A stretch of DNA of 64,000 bases from a virus (taxonomy: Duplodnaviria; Caudoviricetes), in the IMG/VR virus record IMGVR_UViG_3300044695_006401; one strand, written 5' to 3'. A model generated the notes under the pieces. That model saw nothing but the letters and a program-made list of their open reading frames with translations. It did not search any database and was not told the origin of the DNA. This document shows positions 48,547 through 53,780 of this stretch, piece after piece (positions within the stretch are counted from its first letter, which is position 1; each line of letters starts with the position of its first letter). Made by a program: the position numbers and the translations under genes.

Positions 48547-49275
48547 TTATATCATCTGAAGAAGAAGGTCACCATTTCCTTCCCATTTTTTGATTTGTCG
48601 TTTTGGAACCCAAAACACCATCTCACCAATTTCCTCAACTCGTTTAAGGTAATCGTTACGGAAACGGTCCGCTTGTGTTTTGTCAGTGATGTATTCAACT
48701 TTCATGTGTTTAGCACAAGTCTTACCCATCTTAGTCAACATTGAAAACTCATCAGTTAGTGTTTTACCGCAACATACACAGATGTCTCCTCGTTTTACAG
48801 TCATCTTACCTGAGAACTTAACAGCTTTAGGTGATACCGCCAAAACTTTAGTGATGTCTAAAAGTGTTGGGTTGAATTGGAGGTTGTAATCCTCTTTCAT
48901 CTTCTGACCGATATTTCGACCAACGATGATGGTGTCACCTTCAAGAGGGATGTTCATGAGAACGGTTGCGTTTTTGGTTTCCTCTTTTTGGATTTGTGTG
49001 ATCGCGGCAGATATTTGTTTATCTGTCAACTTACCGAACTTCTCAAGTTTAGATTGGATTTCTTTAACAAAAGAATTGGTCCCTTCGTACGCTTGGATTT
49101 TTTTCATATCCTCAGTCATCTCGACTTGTTTTGCCTCAACAGGAGCGTTTAGAATCTTCTCAACCGCAGCCGCTTGGTTTGCGGTTAATGAACCATATTT
49201 AGCGATTACATCTTTCATTCTTAAGATGAAAGAGTTATGACCTTGGTAGTTTTGAACTTGAGTGGTAGTTGACAT
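48547..49275 (-). CDS. Early protein with tandem N-terminal repeat and DUF6011-like Zn-finger
   Basis: YQGHNSFI...LTANQ and YEGTNSFV...LTDKQ; CVCCGKTLTDEFS...MGKTCAKH. Confidence 0.65.
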   Translation of the reverse strand: MSTTTQVQNYQGHNSFILRMKDVIAKYGSLTANQAAAVEKILNAPVEAKQVEMTEDMKKIQAYEGTNSFVKEIQSKLEKFGKLTDKQISAAITQIQKEETKNATVLMNIPLEGDTIIVGRNIGQKMKEDYNLQFNPTLLDITKVLAVSPKAVKFSGKMTVKRGDICVCCGKTLTDEFSMLTKMGKTCAKHMKVEYITDKTQADRFRNDYLKRVEEIGEMVFWVPKRQIKKWEGNGDLLLQMI

Positions 49276-49311: not shown

Positions 49312-49364
49312 GTCAACTTTTCCGAACTGCAAAAAAAATCCCCACATTTGTGAGGATTATTTTT

Positions 49365-50117
49365 TTAACACATTGACTCAGCCAACTCCCAAAGTTTTGT
49401 ATTCACTTGATTAACCGCGATAATGTTCTGTAGTCCACGGAGTTTAGATCTTCTACCTCTTTGTGTGGTCATTTCAACACCACCTCGAACATATTTTTCT
49501 TGTACTACATTGAACACTTTCCACATATCATCACCTTGATCTTCATCACGATTAGGTGTCAAAAGTCCTACAATCTCCATGTCCTTGAGAACTTTTTCTT
49601 TTCCAAAACGGATCTCAGCAGACTGTCGTAAGAAATCAATTTTTTCATCGGTTGAGAGCTCTCGTTCCATCATGCGATTAACAGATCCTTCAATCTTTGG
49701 TAGTCGTCCCGCAAAACTTTCAGTCAATCGTTTAACTTCATCCAAATCAAATCTTGAGTGACGGAGTTTAAATGACTCTGATAATGCTGTTGGTACTGTT
49801 AGACCGTTGGAACAAACCAAACGGTGAAGTCCTGCACTTACAGAGAATGTTGCCATTCCGTTGTGTGAGTTTTTAATTACCGCTTCAACTAATGTGTCAC
49901 CTACTTTTGGTAATTGTCCGTTACGAAATCGTAACTCGTGAATTGAATGTAATCCCTTACCTACTTGTCTTGCTGTTGCTAGTTCCCAACCTTCTAGTTC
50001 GAAGTTTTCCATGATGTCCATCGTAGGTACGAATACATACTTGTCAGACATTTTTGGAGATGGTGCAGTTGCAAACACTGCGGGTGTTGTGGATTTTAAG
50101 TCGTTGAGTGTCATCAT
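49365..50117 (-). CDS. DUF932/DUF945-family protein
   Basis: PAVFA...SDKYVFVPT, NSHNG...AGLHRLVCSNGL, MWKVFNVVQE...GG. Confidence 0.85.
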   Translation of the reverse strand: MMTLNDLKSTTPAVFATAPSPKMSDKYVFVPTMDIMENFELEGWELATARQVGKGLHSIHELRFRNGQLPKVGDTLVEAVIKNSHNGMATFSVSAGLHRLVCSNGLTVPTALSESFKLRHSRFDLDEVKRLTESFAGRLPKIEGSVNRMMERELSTDEKIDFLRQSAEIRFGKEKVLKDMEIVGLLTPNRDEDQGDDMWKVFNVVQEKYVRGGVEMTTQRGRRSKLRGLQNIIAVNQVNTKLWELAESMC

Positions 50118-50227
50118 ATATTTTTGTTTTTATGTTTCTGTTTTCTGGAATATGATTTTTTACTCTTATACACTACAGGTCGAGTAGCTTGCCAAATTTC
50201 TTGTATTGTTAATTCCACCTGTTTCAT
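50114..50227 (-). CDS. 37 aa basic peptide with ArfA-like motif
   Basis: Hand translation MKQVELTIQEIWQATRPVVYKSKKSYSRKQKHKNKNI; ATGA overlap with DUF932 start; first ORF after promoter. Confidence 0.65.
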   Translation of the reverse strand: MKQVELTIQEIWQATRPVVYKSKKSYSRKQKHKNKNI

Positions 50228-50251: not shown

Positions 50252-50259
50252 CAAAGATA
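50252..50259 (-). promoter_or_regulatory. Bacteroidota sigma promoter (TTTG...TATCTTTG)
   Basis: TTTG upstream, TATCTTTG 24 nt before ATG 50227. Confidence 0.8.
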
Positions 50260-50298
50260 TATACTTTTTCTCAATCTACAAAATGTTTTTTATTTTTT

Positions 50299-50616
50299 TT
50301 ACAAAACTAAACTTGATACTAATTCTTTAATTCTTTCTTCCGATACAACACCAACAGATGTTTCTCTTAACTCTGAACCATCAAATGATTTGATCGCAGG
50401 AATGCTACGAACACCATACTCAATTGCAATCTCTTTATTATTACCTTCTTCAATATTCATTGTATACATTTGAATACCTGTAGTGTTACTTGTTGCAACT
50501 CTTTCGAACACAGGTTTCAACATTTTACACGGACCACACCAAGGCGCCCAAAATTCAACGATAACTTTCTCACCGTTATTTAATTTTTGTTTTAATTCGT
50601 TGTTTGTAATTTCCAT
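50299..50616 (-). CDS. trxA: Thioredoxin
   Basis: EFWAPWCGPCK; YGVRSIP. Confidence 0.95.
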   Translation of the reverse strand: MEITNNELKQKLNNGEKVIVEFWAPWCGPCKMLKPVFERVATSNTTGIQMYTMNIEEGNNKEIAIEYGVRSIPAIKSFDGSELRETSVGVVSEERIKELVSSLVL

Positions 50617-50617
50617 T

Positions 50618-50878
50618 TTATTTGTTTTTTTTGAGCATCTTTCTAAATATACTCATTGATTTATGTGTGTTTGCATAATAATTACTTGCTGGATTTTTTT
50701 TACTTTCACCATCCATGTGTCCTCGATGGTAAGCACGATTGATCGAGTCTTCCTCCACTTTTTCAAGTTCATTAACTTTTACAATGATTTCTTCTAACAA
50801 GGTTGAGTGGTCCAAACTTTCTTCGTTTTGTTTTTTTTCTTTCAACCAATTTCTGAGTTCTTGACGGAATGTTTTCAT
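50618..50878 (-). CDS. Small hypothetical protein
   Basis: 86 aa ORF. Confidence 0.7.
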   Translation of the reverse strand: MKTFRQELRNWLKEKKQNEESLDHSTLLEEIIVKVNELEKVEEDSINRAYHRGHMDGESKKNPASNYYANTHKSMSIFRKMLKKNK

Positions 50879-50902: not shown

Positions 50903-51487
50903 TTATTTTATGTCAACTTCAACATCGATTGGTAATCCGTATTTTTCAAGTAAATTATAAAAATAATCGTAAGCTACACTTCTAAGATAACCTGTTAAAT
51001 CACCTGTCTCGTAAAACTCTCTTGCAATGTTTAACGCTTCATAAATTGAAACTATTTCCATTCGGTAATTTTCTCCGTAATCATCTTCATAAATTAATGC
51101 TTCAATTTCACCATTACCGTCCACATCTAACATTAAAAGGACAACTTCCATTTTGATACTCAGTTCATAACTATCAAATCCAACAACTTTAAAATCGGCG
51201 TTTAAATTCTGTGAGTCGTCTTGTAATCTGAATGTTTTATCACTTATTTCCTTAACTAATTTATCGTATAATATTTCTCTACCACCATTATAACGATACC
51301 ATATCGGTCTAACTTGTTGGTAATCTTCTATACTATTTTTTGTAATACCTAAAACGTGGTATAACATCTCATCCAAAAAAGGTTCTTCCCCATTCTTTTT
51401 TTGTCTGTCCCAAAAAGAATACAAGAACTCACGAAGATTGTCTTCGGTGAGTTTACTATATTGTGCTTCTGTAATTAGAATATTCAT
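50903..51487 (-). CDS. Leader-bearing protein, related to 53152-53712
   Basis: MNILITEAQY; FLYSFWDRQ vs LFFKIWQNE. Confidence 0.8.
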   Translation of the reverse strand: MNILITEAQYSKLTEDNLREFLYSFWDRQKKNGEEPFLDEMLYHVLGITKNSIEDYQQVRPIWYRYNGGREILYDKLVKEISDKTFRLQDDSQNLNADFKVVGFDSYELSIKMEVVLLMLDVDGNGEIEALIYEDDYGENYRMEIVSIYEALNIAREFYETGDLTGYLRSVAYDYFYNLLEKYGLPIDVEVDIK

Positions 51488-52377
51488 TTGATTTTTATTT
51501 TTTGCCCAACTTCTATTTTATCTGATTTCAAGTCGTTTAATTTTTTTAAACTATCTACAGTAACACTTTTATCGTATCGAGACGCTATTTTAGAAAGTGT
51601 ATCACCTGATTTTACTGTATAAAATTCTTTTGAGAAATCATACCCGTAATCCATATAGTAATCATTTTTGAAATACTTATCACATTCGGGTCTTTTTGCC
51701 GCATCTATGGGTTCCATTTTTAAACACCTCTGTTTTTCAGTTTCTTTACTATTATTTGATTGTGGTTTTTTATCTGAGTTAGTTTTTTTATCTCCCTTCA
51801 ATTCTTTAGCATATTTTTTAAAGGCTTCTTGATTAGTAACCATTCTATCAGCAACACCACCTTTATATCTTGGGTCATTTGCTTGTGAGAAATCAATGTT
51901 CCAACCTTGTAGATATTTTGCCGCAGCATCATCCCAATTACCAGCATTAATTGCCTCAACCCATTTATAACCTTTTTTTGCTTCTCCTCTATAAACTGAA
52001 TTAACAAGAGCTTTTTTTATATAAGTTGGGTAAGTGTCGTATTTAGGAAATAAGTTTTTTGTTTTCTTTTCTTCATTTATAATATCCAATGTAAGAAGTT
52101 GTTCTGCCTTTGTTTTTGTAATCTTTGCACCAACCTTTGCTTCAGGACCAGTATGCCCCCATCCAATCGTTAAAGTTCCACCTCTTTTTTTATTTGATGA
52201 ACTAACAAATGTCTTTGGATTTTTAGGGTCCTTGTCATCAAATACATAATGTTTTCCTGTCGCATCAACAACCTCGTTCTCATATGATTTGATTGTTTCT
52301 CTAAAATCTTCGTCATCAGCTAAAGATGTTGCTTCTGTCAACATTTTTAATTGTGATTCTGTAATTATGATTTTCAT
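51484..52377 (-). CDS. Leader-bearing lysozyme-like (GH24-like) protein with C-terminal LysM
   Basis: MKIIITESQL; TLTIGWGH...ITKTKAEQLL..DI; YTVKSGDTLSKIA...LKKLN.L.SD.IEVGQKIKI. Confidence 0.8.
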   Translation of the reverse strand: MKIIITESQLKMLTEATSLADDEDFRETIKSYENEVVDATGKHYVFDDKDPKNPKTFVSSSNKKRGGTLTIGWGHTGPEAKVGAKITKTKAEQLLTLDIINEEKKTKNLFPKYDTYPTYIKKALVNSVYRGEAKKGYKWVEAINAGNWDDAAAKYLQGWNIDFSQANDPRYKGGVADRMVTNQEAFKKYAKELKGDKKTNSDKKPQSNNSKETEKQRCLKMEPIDAAKRPECDKYFKNDYYMDYGYDFSKEFYTVKSGDTLSKIASRYDKSVTVDSLKKLNDLKSDKIEVGQKIKIK

Positions 52378-52751
52378 GCATCAATTGTTTTAATATCATA
52401 GTTAAAATTATCTTTAAACCATTTTTTAAACACAGGTTTCCACAATTCACCAAATTGACTCAATAATTCTATTTTATTTTCGTCTTCAATAAATAATACC
52501 GGACCTACCAATATTCTTTCATCCCCTATTGTTTCATATCCTTGTTGGTATAAAACAAATTCCATTTTCCCGTAACTAAAGTCCCCACTATAAAAGTAAA
52601 TATTGTCTGACATAACATACTCACGGTTATCAAAATCATAGATTTCCTGTTCACCATAAGATATATCACTTACATCGTACAAATCATTTATATAATCATA
52701 AATGTGTTTTTCCATTTCATTAAGTTGGTTCTCTGTAATTATTATTTTCAT
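52374..52751 (-). CDS. Leader-bearing protein
   Basis: MKIIITENQL; TAATG overlap. Confidence 0.8.
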   Translation of the reverse strand: MKIIITENQLNEMEKHIYDYINDLYDVSDISYGEQEIYDFDNREYVMSDNIYFYSGDFSYGKMEFVLYQQGYETIGDERILVGPVLFIEDENKIELLSQFGELWKPVFKKWFKDNFNYDIKTIDA

Positions 52752-53155
52752 TACCAATTGAAGTCTTTTCTTTTATTAATTATTTCTCCTATTTCTATAG
52801 TAATGAATCTACCACCAATAATGTTTCTTGCCTCTGCTTGTAGTTCATAAATAAAATTATCTAAATTATTATATTCATTTATTGAATCAACATAACAGTT
52901 AACTTTTATGTGTATAACTTCCATTTTATTTTTTTCAAAATAATCCATAGATGTTACTTTTGATACGTCCACTACTTTAATTTCTTCAATCATATCTACA
53001 GGGTCACAAATAAGATTTTGATGTGATCTAATATAATATCCACCTTCACAATTTTCTTTTACCTGATCAAAAGCCATGTCAATAAGACTTTGCATGGAAT
53101 CTGTATTTGACTCCAACAATATTCTATACTGACTTTCTGTGATTATTATTTTCAT
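52751..53155 (-). CDS. Leader-bearing protein
   Basis: MKIIITESQY; ATGA overlap. Confidence 0.8.
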   Translation of the reverse strand: MKIIITESQYRILLESNTDSMQSLIDMAFDQVKENCEGGYYIRSHQNLICDPVDMIEEIKVVDVSKVTSMDYFEKNKMEVIHIKVNCYVDSINEYNNLDNFIYELQAEARNIIGGRFITIEIGEIINKRKDFNW

Positions 53156-53712
53156 TCTTTTATCCAACATAAATTTGTCTCAACCATTATTCCTGTTTTT
53201 TTAGTAACTTCTTGATATAATATATCTTCAATTACTGATTTAATTTCACTATCAATTTCCCACCACAAGTCTTCATTTTCTTCTAAATCTTTTAAATAGT
53301 GGGTTTCGCCATCAGTCATTATTAAAGTTACTTTACCGTCACTTTCAATTGGTCCATTAACAAATATCAAATTATCTTCTTCATAGTCACTATGAAACTG
53401 CGGTTTAAACTTAAAATTATATCCACCCCTAAAATCATAATCCATAGTGTCAAATGTTCTATCCATTAGTTGGTATGACTTTTCTATCATTTTATCCCAA
53501 CCACCAAGAAAATCCCTATACATTTCGTAAATTTCTTTCCTGTCTTGTGGATTATAATTTACGTAGTCAGCAATTTTTGGATCGAAATCTATTGTACCAG
53601 TACTGTCCAATTCGTTTTGCCAAATTTTAAAAAATAACTTTTTAAACTTTTTTTCTTCTTCAGAATAAGATTCTATTAATTTATATTGTGATTCTGTAAT
53701 TATGATTTTCAT
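53152..53712 (-). CDS. Leader-bearing protein
   Basis: MKIIITESQY; TATTTAT upstream. Confidence 0.8.
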   Translation of the reverse strand: MKIIITESQYKLIESYSEEEKKFKKLFFKIWQNELDSTGTIDFDPKIADYVNYNPQDRKEIYEMYRDFLGGWDKMIEKSYQLMDRTFDTMDYDFRGGYNFKFKPQFHSDYEEDNLIFVNGPIESDGKVTLIMTDGETHYLKDLEENEDLWWEIDSEIKSVIEDILYQEVTKKTGIMVETNLCWIKE

Positions 53713-53780
53713 ATAAGATAAATATTTCAAGCATAAAAAAAGTCAGGTCTCCCTGACTTCAATCTATATATAATTAAATA

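What the first reader, a model, noticed from the sequence alone, without database searches (positions are those of the whole stretch)
50114..50227. Unannotated early peptide resembling ribosome-rescue factor ArfA
Seen: RPVVYKSKKSYSRKQKH, first ORF after a consensus promoter and coupled to DUF932. Established: E. coli ArfA has RVEKNKKGKGSYxRKGKH, and its basic C-terminal part binds the ribosomal mRNA channel; ArfA is mainly proteobacterial. Inference: a phage peptide that rescues or blocks host ribosomes on truncated mRNA during takeover.
Basis: partly seen in the sequence, partly recalled or inferred. Interest (0 to 1): 0.62.

Follow-up and report, generated by a model that had tools for sequence, protein, structure and literature searches.

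The report
Phage ArfA-like ribosome-rescue peptide
A giant lake phage that probably infects Flavobacterium-type bacteria carries a real, strongly conserved 37-codon gene whose basic tail matches the part of the bacterial rescue factor ArfA that fills the empty mRNA channel of stalled ribosomes, so it probably acts on host ribosomes, but no function has been tested.

Summary
The ORF exists as described, but on the minus strand: ATG at 50227, stop at 50114. It is a real gene under strong purifying selection (dN/dS about 0.08). It occurs in 74 viral contigs and 157 protein clusters, and in the cultured Flavobacterium phage immuto (gene immuto35A_123).

It follows a Bacteroidota-type promoter. Its stop overlaps the DUF932 start, and a terminator-like hairpin follows DUF932. 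DUF932 is the downstream gene in only about half of the related loci, so the peptide is an independent gene, not a leader.

It is not a Pfam ArfA member. It gets no ArfA HMM hit, lacks the invariant KGKGS loop, and shows no similarity to the RF2-recruiting N-terminus. The tail similarity is nevertheless order-specific. ArfA is the top PDB hit of the family profile (E 0.13), hhalign gives P 3e-4, and 1 of 300 column shuffles reaches that score. A loop-less ArfA of Pseudoalteromonas phage J2-1 passes both the ArfA and DUF7230 Pfam cut-offs and links the two families.

The best reading is a divergent, loop-less ArfA-type ribosome binder. Rescue activity is inferred only.

This scan has reported the same kind of peptide before on other DNA, and phage ArfA genes are already annotated in GenBank.

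The parts
50252..50282 (-). Bacteroidota-type promoter-like motif, TTTG-N19-TAnnTTTG. Its -7 box ends 24 nt before the ATG.
   Evidence: 8 matches in the window against 2.65 expected, 7 of them on the gene strand; the full motif lies within 100 nt upstream of the family gene in 21 of 47 distinct loci, against 21 of 1480 random windows.
50114..50227 (-). 37-aa peptide gene. Residues 1-7 are extended, 8-15 helical, and 16-37 form a basic tail with the motif K-x-K-K-x-Y-x-R-K-x-K-H.
   Evidence: family and conservation; dN/dS about 0.08; AF2 helix 8-15, pLDDT 82; ArfA and DUF7230 similarity.
49365..50117 (-). DUF932 gene. Its ATG overlaps the peptide's TGA stop as ATGA.
   Evidence: PF06067, E 8e-24; phrog_12094, unknown function; overlap.
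49337..49358 (-). Terminator-like hairpin followed by a T run. It closes the promoter-peptide-DUF932 unit, and the next promoter-like motif follows at 49333-49304.
50299..50616 (-). Thioredoxin gene just upstream. This is conserved neighbourhood, not part of the transcription unit.
   Evidence: PF00085, E 6e-22; synteny.

Best explanation
The ORF is a genuine phage gene for a 37-residue peptide. It belongs to a large, mostly phage-borne family that borders Pfam DUF7230 and is a divergent, loop-less relative of the ribosome-rescue factor ArfA. Shown here: it is a real gene under purifying selection; it heads its own promoter-to-terminator unit together with DUF932; and its tail matches ArfA residues 26-50 in an order-specific way, with a 3-residue deletion of the GKG loop. 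Inferred: the basic tail (residues 16-37) threads into the vacant mRNA entry channel of the 30S subunit when a ribosome has run to the 3' end of a cut or truncated mRNA, as ArfA's tail does. The conserved N-terminal strand-plus-amphipathic-helix (residues 1-15) would then sit at the A site and engage a host release factor, or another factor, so that the peptidyl-tRNA is hydrolysed and the ribosome is freed for phage mRNAs. This would be useful when host mRNA is degraded during takeover, or when RNA-cleaving defences strand ribosomes. The host is probably a member of Bacteroidota, a phylum in which arfA itself has not been found.
For: Real gene: dN/dS about 0.08, with third-position entropy 1.09 against 0.40 and 0.23 at positions 1 and 2. 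There are 74 IMG/VR loci and 157 clusters at E<=1e-3 among 1.84 billion representatives. Tail similarity: BLASTP against E. coli ArfA gives 9/16 identities. The family profile searched against all 177,635 PDB sequences returns ArfA as its best hits (E 0.13). No ribosomal protein, SmpB, ArfB or RMF chain appears, although the PDB holds many of them. hhalign of the family (A3) against 27 diverse ArfAs (A4) scores 19.7, P 3.1e-4. Column-shuffled ArfA profiles average 8.1 +/- 2.1. One of 300 reaches the real score, and none of 300 does when only the tail columns are shuffled. Half of the family members, and 18 of 35 ArfAs, exceed the 99th percentile of composition-matched shuffles in reciprocal HMM searches. 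Bridge: the 51-aa 'alternative ribosome-rescue factor A' of Pseudoalteromonas phage J2-1 scores 41.3 bits on Pfam ArfA and 28.6 bits on DUF7230, both over their cut-offs. It lacks the GKG loop. It matches this family at hhalign probability 93%, E 3e-7, and ArfA at 98.4%, E 1e-14. 94 of 118 family members hit DUF7230. Host: Bacteroidota-type promoters, and a full-length member in cultured Flavobacterium phage immuto (E 2.2e-19). Precedent: Pfam-level ArfA genes occur in cultured phages and are noted in papers (PMC8953757; PMC12753301, where the gene is expressed both early and late).
Against: There is no Pfam ArfA hit for the peptide or for any of 118 relatives. The KGKGS motif, invariant in all 27 ArfAs aligned, is absent. 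The similarity covers only about 21 basic residues, and its statistics are marginal in an unbiased search (E 0.13; hhalign probability 39%). The N-terminal 15 residues, the most conserved part of the family, show no similarity to ArfA's RF2-activating region, so release-factor recruitment is pure inference. Only one bridging sequence was found. There is no arfA-like non-stop mRNA design and no association with tRNA genes. Divergent ArfAs without the RKxKH tail do not match the family, so convergence on a basic RNA-binding motif is not excluded. No expression or binding data exist.
Confidence: 0.5

Rival explanations
1. The peptide plugs the channel without rescuing. The ArfA-like tail would bind the empty mRNA channel of stalled ribosomes or free 30S subunits, but the different N-terminus would recruit no release factor. 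The peptide would instead block host trans-translation (the SmpB tail uses the same channel) or host initiation. It would be an inhibitor rather than a rescuer.
For: The same tail evidence applies as for the main reading. The N-terminal half has no similarity to ArfA's RF2-activating part (only the tail aligns).
Against: The N-terminal 15 residues are the most conserved part among close relatives. This argues for a specific partner rather than a passive plug. Global ribosome blockage would also harm phage translation. There are no direct data.
Confidence: 0.15
2. The peptide is a small basic nucleic-acid-binding protein unrelated to ribosome rescue, for example an RNA or DNA chaperone or a partner of DUF932. 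Its likeness to ArfA would then be convergence in a lysine/arginine-rich segment.
For: The similarity is limited to about 21 basic residues, with E 0.13 against the PDB and hhalign probability 39%. The reversed ArfA profile still scores 14.2. The gene is tightly coupled to DUF932 here and in 36 of 74 loci. The Pfam ArfA model does not detect it.
Against: Shuffle controls show the match depends on residue order. ArfA is the only protein with several PDB matches; the two other hits are a designed coiled coil and a TIR adapter at worse E-values. J2-1, a protein that passes the Pfam ArfA cut-off, carries the same loop-less tail with identical V-to-Y spacing. The peptide also occurs with five or more other kinds of downstream gene, and DUF932 often occurs without it.
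Confidence: 0.25
3. The ORF is a leader peptide (uORF) whose translation only regulates DUF932 through the ATGA overlap, and the peptide itself has no function.
For: The ATGA overlap, and its position as first ORF after the promoter. It contains W and P residues, as some arrest peptides do.
Against: About 35 DUF932 loci lack the peptide. 38 of 74 peptide loci have another downstream gene, with gaps from -11 to +125 nt. In phage immuto it lies 3.2 kb from DUF932. The whole length is under purifying selection, and the family has 157 clusters.
Confidence: 0.04

Closest known systems
ArfA (YhdL; Pfam PF03889) of E. coli and other gamma- and betaproteobacteria; solved on the ribosome in PDB 5H5U, 5MDV, 5MGP, 5U4I
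   Same: It is a small peptide with a C-terminal basic segment that matches ArfA residues 26-50. The aligned positions are V, K-N/S-K-K, Y, R-K, K-H. In ArfA this is the part that senses the empty mRNA channel (PMC11633108, and my knowledge of the 2016-2017 structures).
   Different: The GKG of the invariant KGKGS motif is missing. The N-terminal half has no similarity to the RF2-activating helix and strand. There is no Pfam hit. The gene has an ordinary stop codon rather than a non-stop mRNA design. It is carried by a phage of a phylum in which arfA was found in 0 of 1,956 genomes.
Loop-less phage ArfA of Pseudoalteromonas phage J2-1 (MF988720.1, ATN93434.1; L239:133-285)
   Same: It has the same tail without the GKG loop and the same V-to-Y spacing of 7 residues. 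hhalign against this family gives probability 93%, E 3e-7. It is also phage-borne.
   Different: J2-1 keeps a canonical ArfA N-terminus (Pfam ArfA 41.3 bits; hhalign against ArfA 98.4%). The window's peptide has an unrelated N-terminus. J2-1's host is a gammaproteobacterium.
Pfam DUF7230 (PF23876), family of unknown function
   Same: It is the only Pfam family hit. The window peptide scores 20.7 bits, with residues 16-36 on profile positions 16-36 of 42. 94 of 118 relatives hit it, best E 2.8e-6. An ESM Atlas neighbour cluster is 30% DUF7230.
   Different: The window peptide is below the 27-bit cut-off and only the tail matches. The N-terminal 15 positions differ, so this is a sister group rather than a clear member.
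Pfam-level ArfA genes of cultured phages (Brevundimonas Bambus, Citromicrobium RXM g10, Erythrobacter XM05, Caulobacter Cr30, Roseobacter CRP-212, Pseudomonas pf16, Ralstonia RsoM2USA; pelagiphage HTVC027P gp30)
   Same: They are short (39-60 aa) phage-encoded ArfA-type peptides (PMC8953757; PMC12753301).
   Different: All the ones read here keep the KGKGS or KGRGS loop and pass the ArfA cut-off. They score near zero on this family's HMM. HTVC027P gp30 was not read here.
ArfT of Francisella and BrfA of Bacillus (from my knowledge and PMC11633108)
   Same: They are small factors with a basic tail for the empty mRNA channel plus a lineage-specific part that recruits a release factor. This is a precedent for a divergent N-terminus with the same job.

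Membership tests
ArfA (PF03889) | Scores over the Pfam gathering cut-off (25.5 bits) | tested here: not met
   There was no ArfA hit at E<=10 for the peptide, the six-frame genome, 16 close relatives, or at E<=1 for 118 relatives. E. coli ArfA scores 89.7 bits as a control.
ArfA (PF03889) | Invariant KGKGS motif before the aromatic residue | tested here: not met
   K-G-K-G-S is invariant in 27 diverse ArfAs. The peptide has KSKKS-Y, and profile alignments place a 3-residue gap at the GKG.
ArfA (PF03889) | Basic C-terminal tail (V-x-K-x-K-K ... Y-x-R-K-x-K-H) that occupies the mRNA channel | tested here: met
   The sequence-level match was shown, with shuffle controls. Occupancy of the channel itself is not testable here.
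ArfA (PF03889) | N-terminal helix and strand that bind and activate RF2 (D-N-A-h-x-A-L ... P-L-F-R-x-R-V) | tested here: not met
   No alignment of residues 1-15 to any ArfA profile position was found. AF2 predicts a helix at 8-15 only.
ArfA (PF03889) | Expression from a truncated, stop-less mRNA (hairpin, RNase III site or terminator inside the ORF), repressed by tmRNA | tested here: not met
   The stop codon is ordinary and overlaps the next gene's start. There is no significant RNA structure across the ORF, z -0.64. No terminator-like site lies inside it.
ArfA (PF03889) | Binds non-stop ribosomes and triggers RF2-dependent peptidyl-tRNA hydrolysis | not testable with these tools
   This needs biochemistry. 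A complex prediction with a Bacteroidota RF2 could not be started because the references were not held.
DUF7230 (PF23876) | Scores over the Pfam gathering cut-off (27 bits) | tested here: not met
   The window peptide scores 20.7 bits, E 4.5e-4, over the tail only. 94 of 118 relatives hit at E<=1, best 2.8e-6. The J2-1 ArfA passes at 28.6 bits.
This peptide family (alignment A3) | M-K-x-I-x-v-T-x-Q-E-I-W-x-A-T-R-P, then the basic tail with invariant Y26 | tested here: met
   The window peptide is the first row of A2 and A3. Relatives were found at E down to 5e-15.

The most novel reading that the evidence does not exclude
The 'TIQEIW' peptides and DUF7230 would together form a large, unrecognised branch of loop-less ArfA-type rescue factors spread by phages. 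They would work in Bacteroidota and other phyla that lack arfA, using a new N-terminal module to recruit the host's release factor. Phages would use them to keep ribosomes free during host mRNA destruction, or to undo ribosome stalling caused by RNA-cleaving abortive-infection defences.
Probability: 0.35. Interest if true: 0.75.

Novelty: new variant of a known kind. Interest (0 to 1): 0.55.

Why it matters
ArfA-type rescue is thought to be confined to gamma- and betaproteobacteria and a few bacilli (742 of 15,259 genomes, none in the FCB group; PMC11633108). If this family works like ArfA, then stop-codon-independent termination factors are common cargo of phages of Bacteroidota and other hosts. 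Ribosome rescue would then be a routine part of phage takeover or counter-defence, and Pfam DUF7230 and its neighbours would gain a function.

The family has a member in a cultured phage-host pair, Flavobacterium phage immuto on Flavobacterium sp. LMO8, so the idea can be tested directly. The divergent N-terminus could also show how different release factors are recruited to a ribosome with an empty A site.

Tried and rejected
- tblastn of the peptide against GenBank phages found nothing. This was a false negative, probably caused by the low-complexity filter, because an HMM search later found a full-length member in phage immuto.
- phmmer of the single peptide against the PDB found nothing. 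Only the family profile reached ArfA.
- blastn of the 3-kb region against phages found no match.
- NCBIfam and PHROGs have no model for the peptide.
The single genome-contig scan was then spent on ArfA and returned only Enterobacteriaceae. A diverse ArfA set came from the genome search instead.
- I could not test whether Bacteroidota chromosomes themselves carry the family, because I had no genome handle in that phylum.
- A search for more J2-1-like bridging sequences returned only J2-1 itself.
- Complex prediction with a Bacteroidota RF2 was never run. Five attempts with four different Swiss-Prot names were not held. I did not substitute E. coli RF2 because ArfA-RF2 pairing is species-specific.
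- The leader-peptide idea is rejected on distribution.
- An arfA-style non-stop design is rejected.
- A link to tRNA genes, reported in earlier scan notes for other subfamilies, is not seen here. The window has no tRNA, and 43 of 46 related loci have none.
- The literature on DUF932 and DUF7230 gave no function.

Full report
**What is there.** The ATG is at 50227 and the TGA stop at 50116-50114, giving 37 codons. The ORF list also offers a 46-codon form from a TTG at 50254. Homologues align from the ATG, not the TTG, and the TTG lies inside the promoter motif. The stop overlaps the ATG of a 250-codon gene as ATGA. That gene is a clear DUF932 member (PF06067, E 8e-24; phrog_12094, unknown function).

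- Upstream, at 50282-50252 (-), is TTTG-N19-TAnnTTTG. From my own knowledge this is the Bacteroidota sigma-A consensus, not a sigma-70 one.
- The pattern occurs 8 times in the window against 2.65 expected, and 7 of the 8 are on the gene strand.
- A terminator-like hairpin follows DUF932 at 49358-49337, and the next such promoter follows it.
- The unit is therefore promoter, peptide, DUF932, terminator.

**It is a real gene.** A scan of IMG/VR with the close-relative alignment found 74 loci that encode the peptide.

- Over 40 distinct 33-codon sequences, synonymous differences are saturated (mean pS 0.76) while pN is 0.12.
- dN/dS is about 0.08 in the unsaturated pairs.
- Entropy by codon position is 0.40, 0.23 and 1.09.

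A conserved RNA or a chance ORF is excluded. An exhaustive profile search of 1.84 billion representative proteins found 157 clusters at E<=1e-3. The family pattern is M-K-x-I-x-v-T-x-Q-E-I-W-x-A-T-R-P-x-V-y-K-N-K-K-K-Y-t-R-K-x-K-H-K. Y26 is invariant, and K24, R28, K29 and K31 are each at 90% or more. AlphaFold2 on this alignment gives a helix at 8-15 with the rest extended, mean pLDDT 82.

**It is not a leader peptide of DUF932.**

- Among 44 loci found through DUF932, only about nine carry the peptide. In the rest, DUF932 directly follows its promoter.
- Among the 74 peptide loci, DUF932 is the downstream gene in 36. The others have at least five unrelated downstream genes, at gaps from -11 to +125 nt.
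- 21 of 47 distinct upstream regions carry the full Bacteroidota promoter motif within 100 nt, against 21 of 1480 random windows.
- The usual neighbourhood is peptide, DUF932, a small ORF, thioredoxin and glutaredoxin, on phage-like contigs.

**Host and phage.**

- The window is a 78.6-kb IMG/VR contig rated 27% complete. Relatives reach 216-296 kb.
- A large window protein matches only uncultured 635-642-kb phage genomes in GenBank.
- A profile search of three phage records found a full-length member (E 2.2e-19) in cultured Flavobacterium phage vB_FspM_immuto_3-5A. It is annotated there as hypothetical protein immuto35A_123 and lies 3.2 kb from that phage's DUF932 gene.
- Together with the promoters, this points to a Bacteroidota host.

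**Is it ArfA?** By the family's own criteria it is not.

- The Pfam ArfA model finds nothing in the peptide, in the six-frame genome, or in 118 relatives.
- KGKGS is invariant in 27 diverse ArfAs that I collected from 401 Pseudomonadota genomes. The peptide lacks the GKG of that motif.
- Its N-terminal 15 residues align to nothing in ArfA.
- There is no hairpin or terminator inside the ORF that would make a stop-less mRNA.
- The only Pfam hit is DUF7230, below its cut-off (20.7 of 27 bits) and over the tail only. 94 of the 118 relatives hit it.

**Does it resemble ArfA beyond chance?** Yes, in the tail.

- BLASTP against MG1655 ArfA aligns residues 21-36 with ArfA 34-49, with 9/16 identities.
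- The family profile searched against every PDB sequence gives ArfA chains as its best hits: E 0.13, family positions 16-37 on ArfA 26-50, with a 3-residue gap at GKG. No ribosomal protein or other ribosome factor appears.
- hhalign of the family against the ArfA alignment scores 19.7, P 3.1e-4, probability 39%.
- As a control for composition I shuffled the ArfA columns. The mean score was 8.1, sd 2.1. One of 300 shuffles reached the real score, and none of 300 did when only the tail columns were shuffled. The reversed profile scored 14.2.
- In reciprocal HMM searches, the median family member scores 5.7 bits on an ArfA HMM, against a 99th percentile of 4.7 for shuffled peptides.
- 18 of 35 ArfAs exceed the 99th percentile of their shuffles on the family HMM.
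- Only ArfAs of the gammaproteobacterial type with R-K-x-K-H match. The more divergent ones do not.

**The bridge.** tblastn of ArfA against GenBank phages found ArfA-like genes in about ten cultured phages, three of them annotated as such. All eight that I read pass the Pfam ArfA cut-off.

One of them, from Pseudoalteromonas phage J2-1, has a canonical ArfA N-terminus followed by a tail without the GKG loop.

- It passes both Pfam ArfA (41.3 bits) and DUF7230 (28.6 bits). The precomputed annotation lists both families.
- It matches ArfA at 98.4% probability, E 1e-14, and this family at 93%, E 3e-7.
- The spacing from the conserved V to the conserved Y is 7 residues in both J2-1 and the window peptide.

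This makes common descent of the tail the simplest reading. Only this one intermediate was found, however, and convergence on a channel-binding motif cannot be ruled out.

**Mechanism.**

- Established, from PMC11633108 and my knowledge of the ArfA-ribosome structures: ArfA's basic C-terminal part lies in the vacant mRNA entry channel of a ribosome stalled at an mRNA 3' end. Its N-terminal part recruits and activates RF2.
- Inferred here: the peptide's tail does the same, and its own strongly conserved N-terminal module engages a host factor, most likely a release factor.
- A phage gains free ribosomes when host mRNAs are degraded or when RNA-cleaving defences act.
- Rivals: a channel plug that blocks trans-translation or initiation; a basic nucleic-acid binder unrelated to ribosomes; a leader peptide.
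- My estimates: real gene above 0.98; tail related to ArfA about 0.65; ArfA-like action on ribosomes about 0.5, of which true rescue is about 0.35-0.4.

**What is known already.**

- Phage ArfA genes are annotated in GenBank and mentioned in two papers (RXM g10 in PMC8953757; HTVC027P gp30, expressed early and late, in PMC12753301).
- A survey found arfA in 0 of 1,956 FCB-group genomes and 0 of 2,376 alphaproteobacterial genomes (PMC11633108).
- I found no paper on DUF7230.
- Earlier notes of this scan describe the same kind of phage peptide on other genomes, including a DUF7230 member and a 'loop-less' form. I used these as leads and re-tested the claims on this family myself.
- The finding is thus a new variant (different N-terminus, no loop, Bacteroidota phages) of a known kind, and it is not new to this scan.

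**Limits.**

- No complex prediction was run because the RF2 references were not held.
- Bacteroidota chromosomes were not searched.
- 'Early' expression is untested.

Noticed in passing
window 50618-50878 (-): An 86-aa ORF two genes upstream has a weak Pfam hit to ribosome modulation factor RMF (E 0.0064, 17 bits against a cut-off of 27.9). The hit covers an N-R-A-Y-x-R-G-H-x-D motif. The ORF and motif are conserved in 17 related loci within 0.3-3 kb of the peptide gene. A second ribosome-directed small protein next to the ArfA-like one would be notable, but the hit is below threshold.
   Followed up: partly
L244:1390-1569 (uncultured 635-kb phage LR745206.1, 460259-460438): A 59-aa ORF carries the same basic tail (V-H-K-S-K-K-T-Y-T-R-K-P-K-Y-K) behind a quite different, longer N-terminus. 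This suggests the tail is a module joined to various heads.
   Followed up: no
GenBank phages of Alphaproteobacteria (L233-L237): Phages of Brevundimonas, Caulobacter, Erythrobacter, Citromicrobium and a Roseobacter-group host carry 39-60-aa genes that pass the Pfam ArfA cut-off. A published survey found arfA in 0 of 2,376 alphaproteobacterial genomes. Two of these genes are unannotated or lie inside other annotated features (Cr30, CRP-212).
   Followed up: partly
Salmonella phage Arash OQ632216.1 57961-58074 (hit H31): An ArfA-like match (63% identity over ArfA 4-41, E 3e-9) lies under a feature annotated 'ribosomal protein L2'. This is probably a misannotation.
   Followed up: no
window 50903-53730 (-): Four consecutive genes listed begin with nearly the same N-terminal leader, M-K-I-I-I-T-E-(S/N)-Q or M-N-I-L-I-T-E-A-Q. 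One is a LysM/endolysin-like protein (51484-52377). Other notes of this scan read this as a capsid-targeting leader.
   Followed up: no
window 48547-49275 (-): The 242-aa gene after the DUF932 terminator has its own Bacteroidota-type promoter (49333-49304). It has a weak C-terminal DUF6011 hit with a CxxC...C cluster, and phrog_4046 of unknown function.
   Followed up: no
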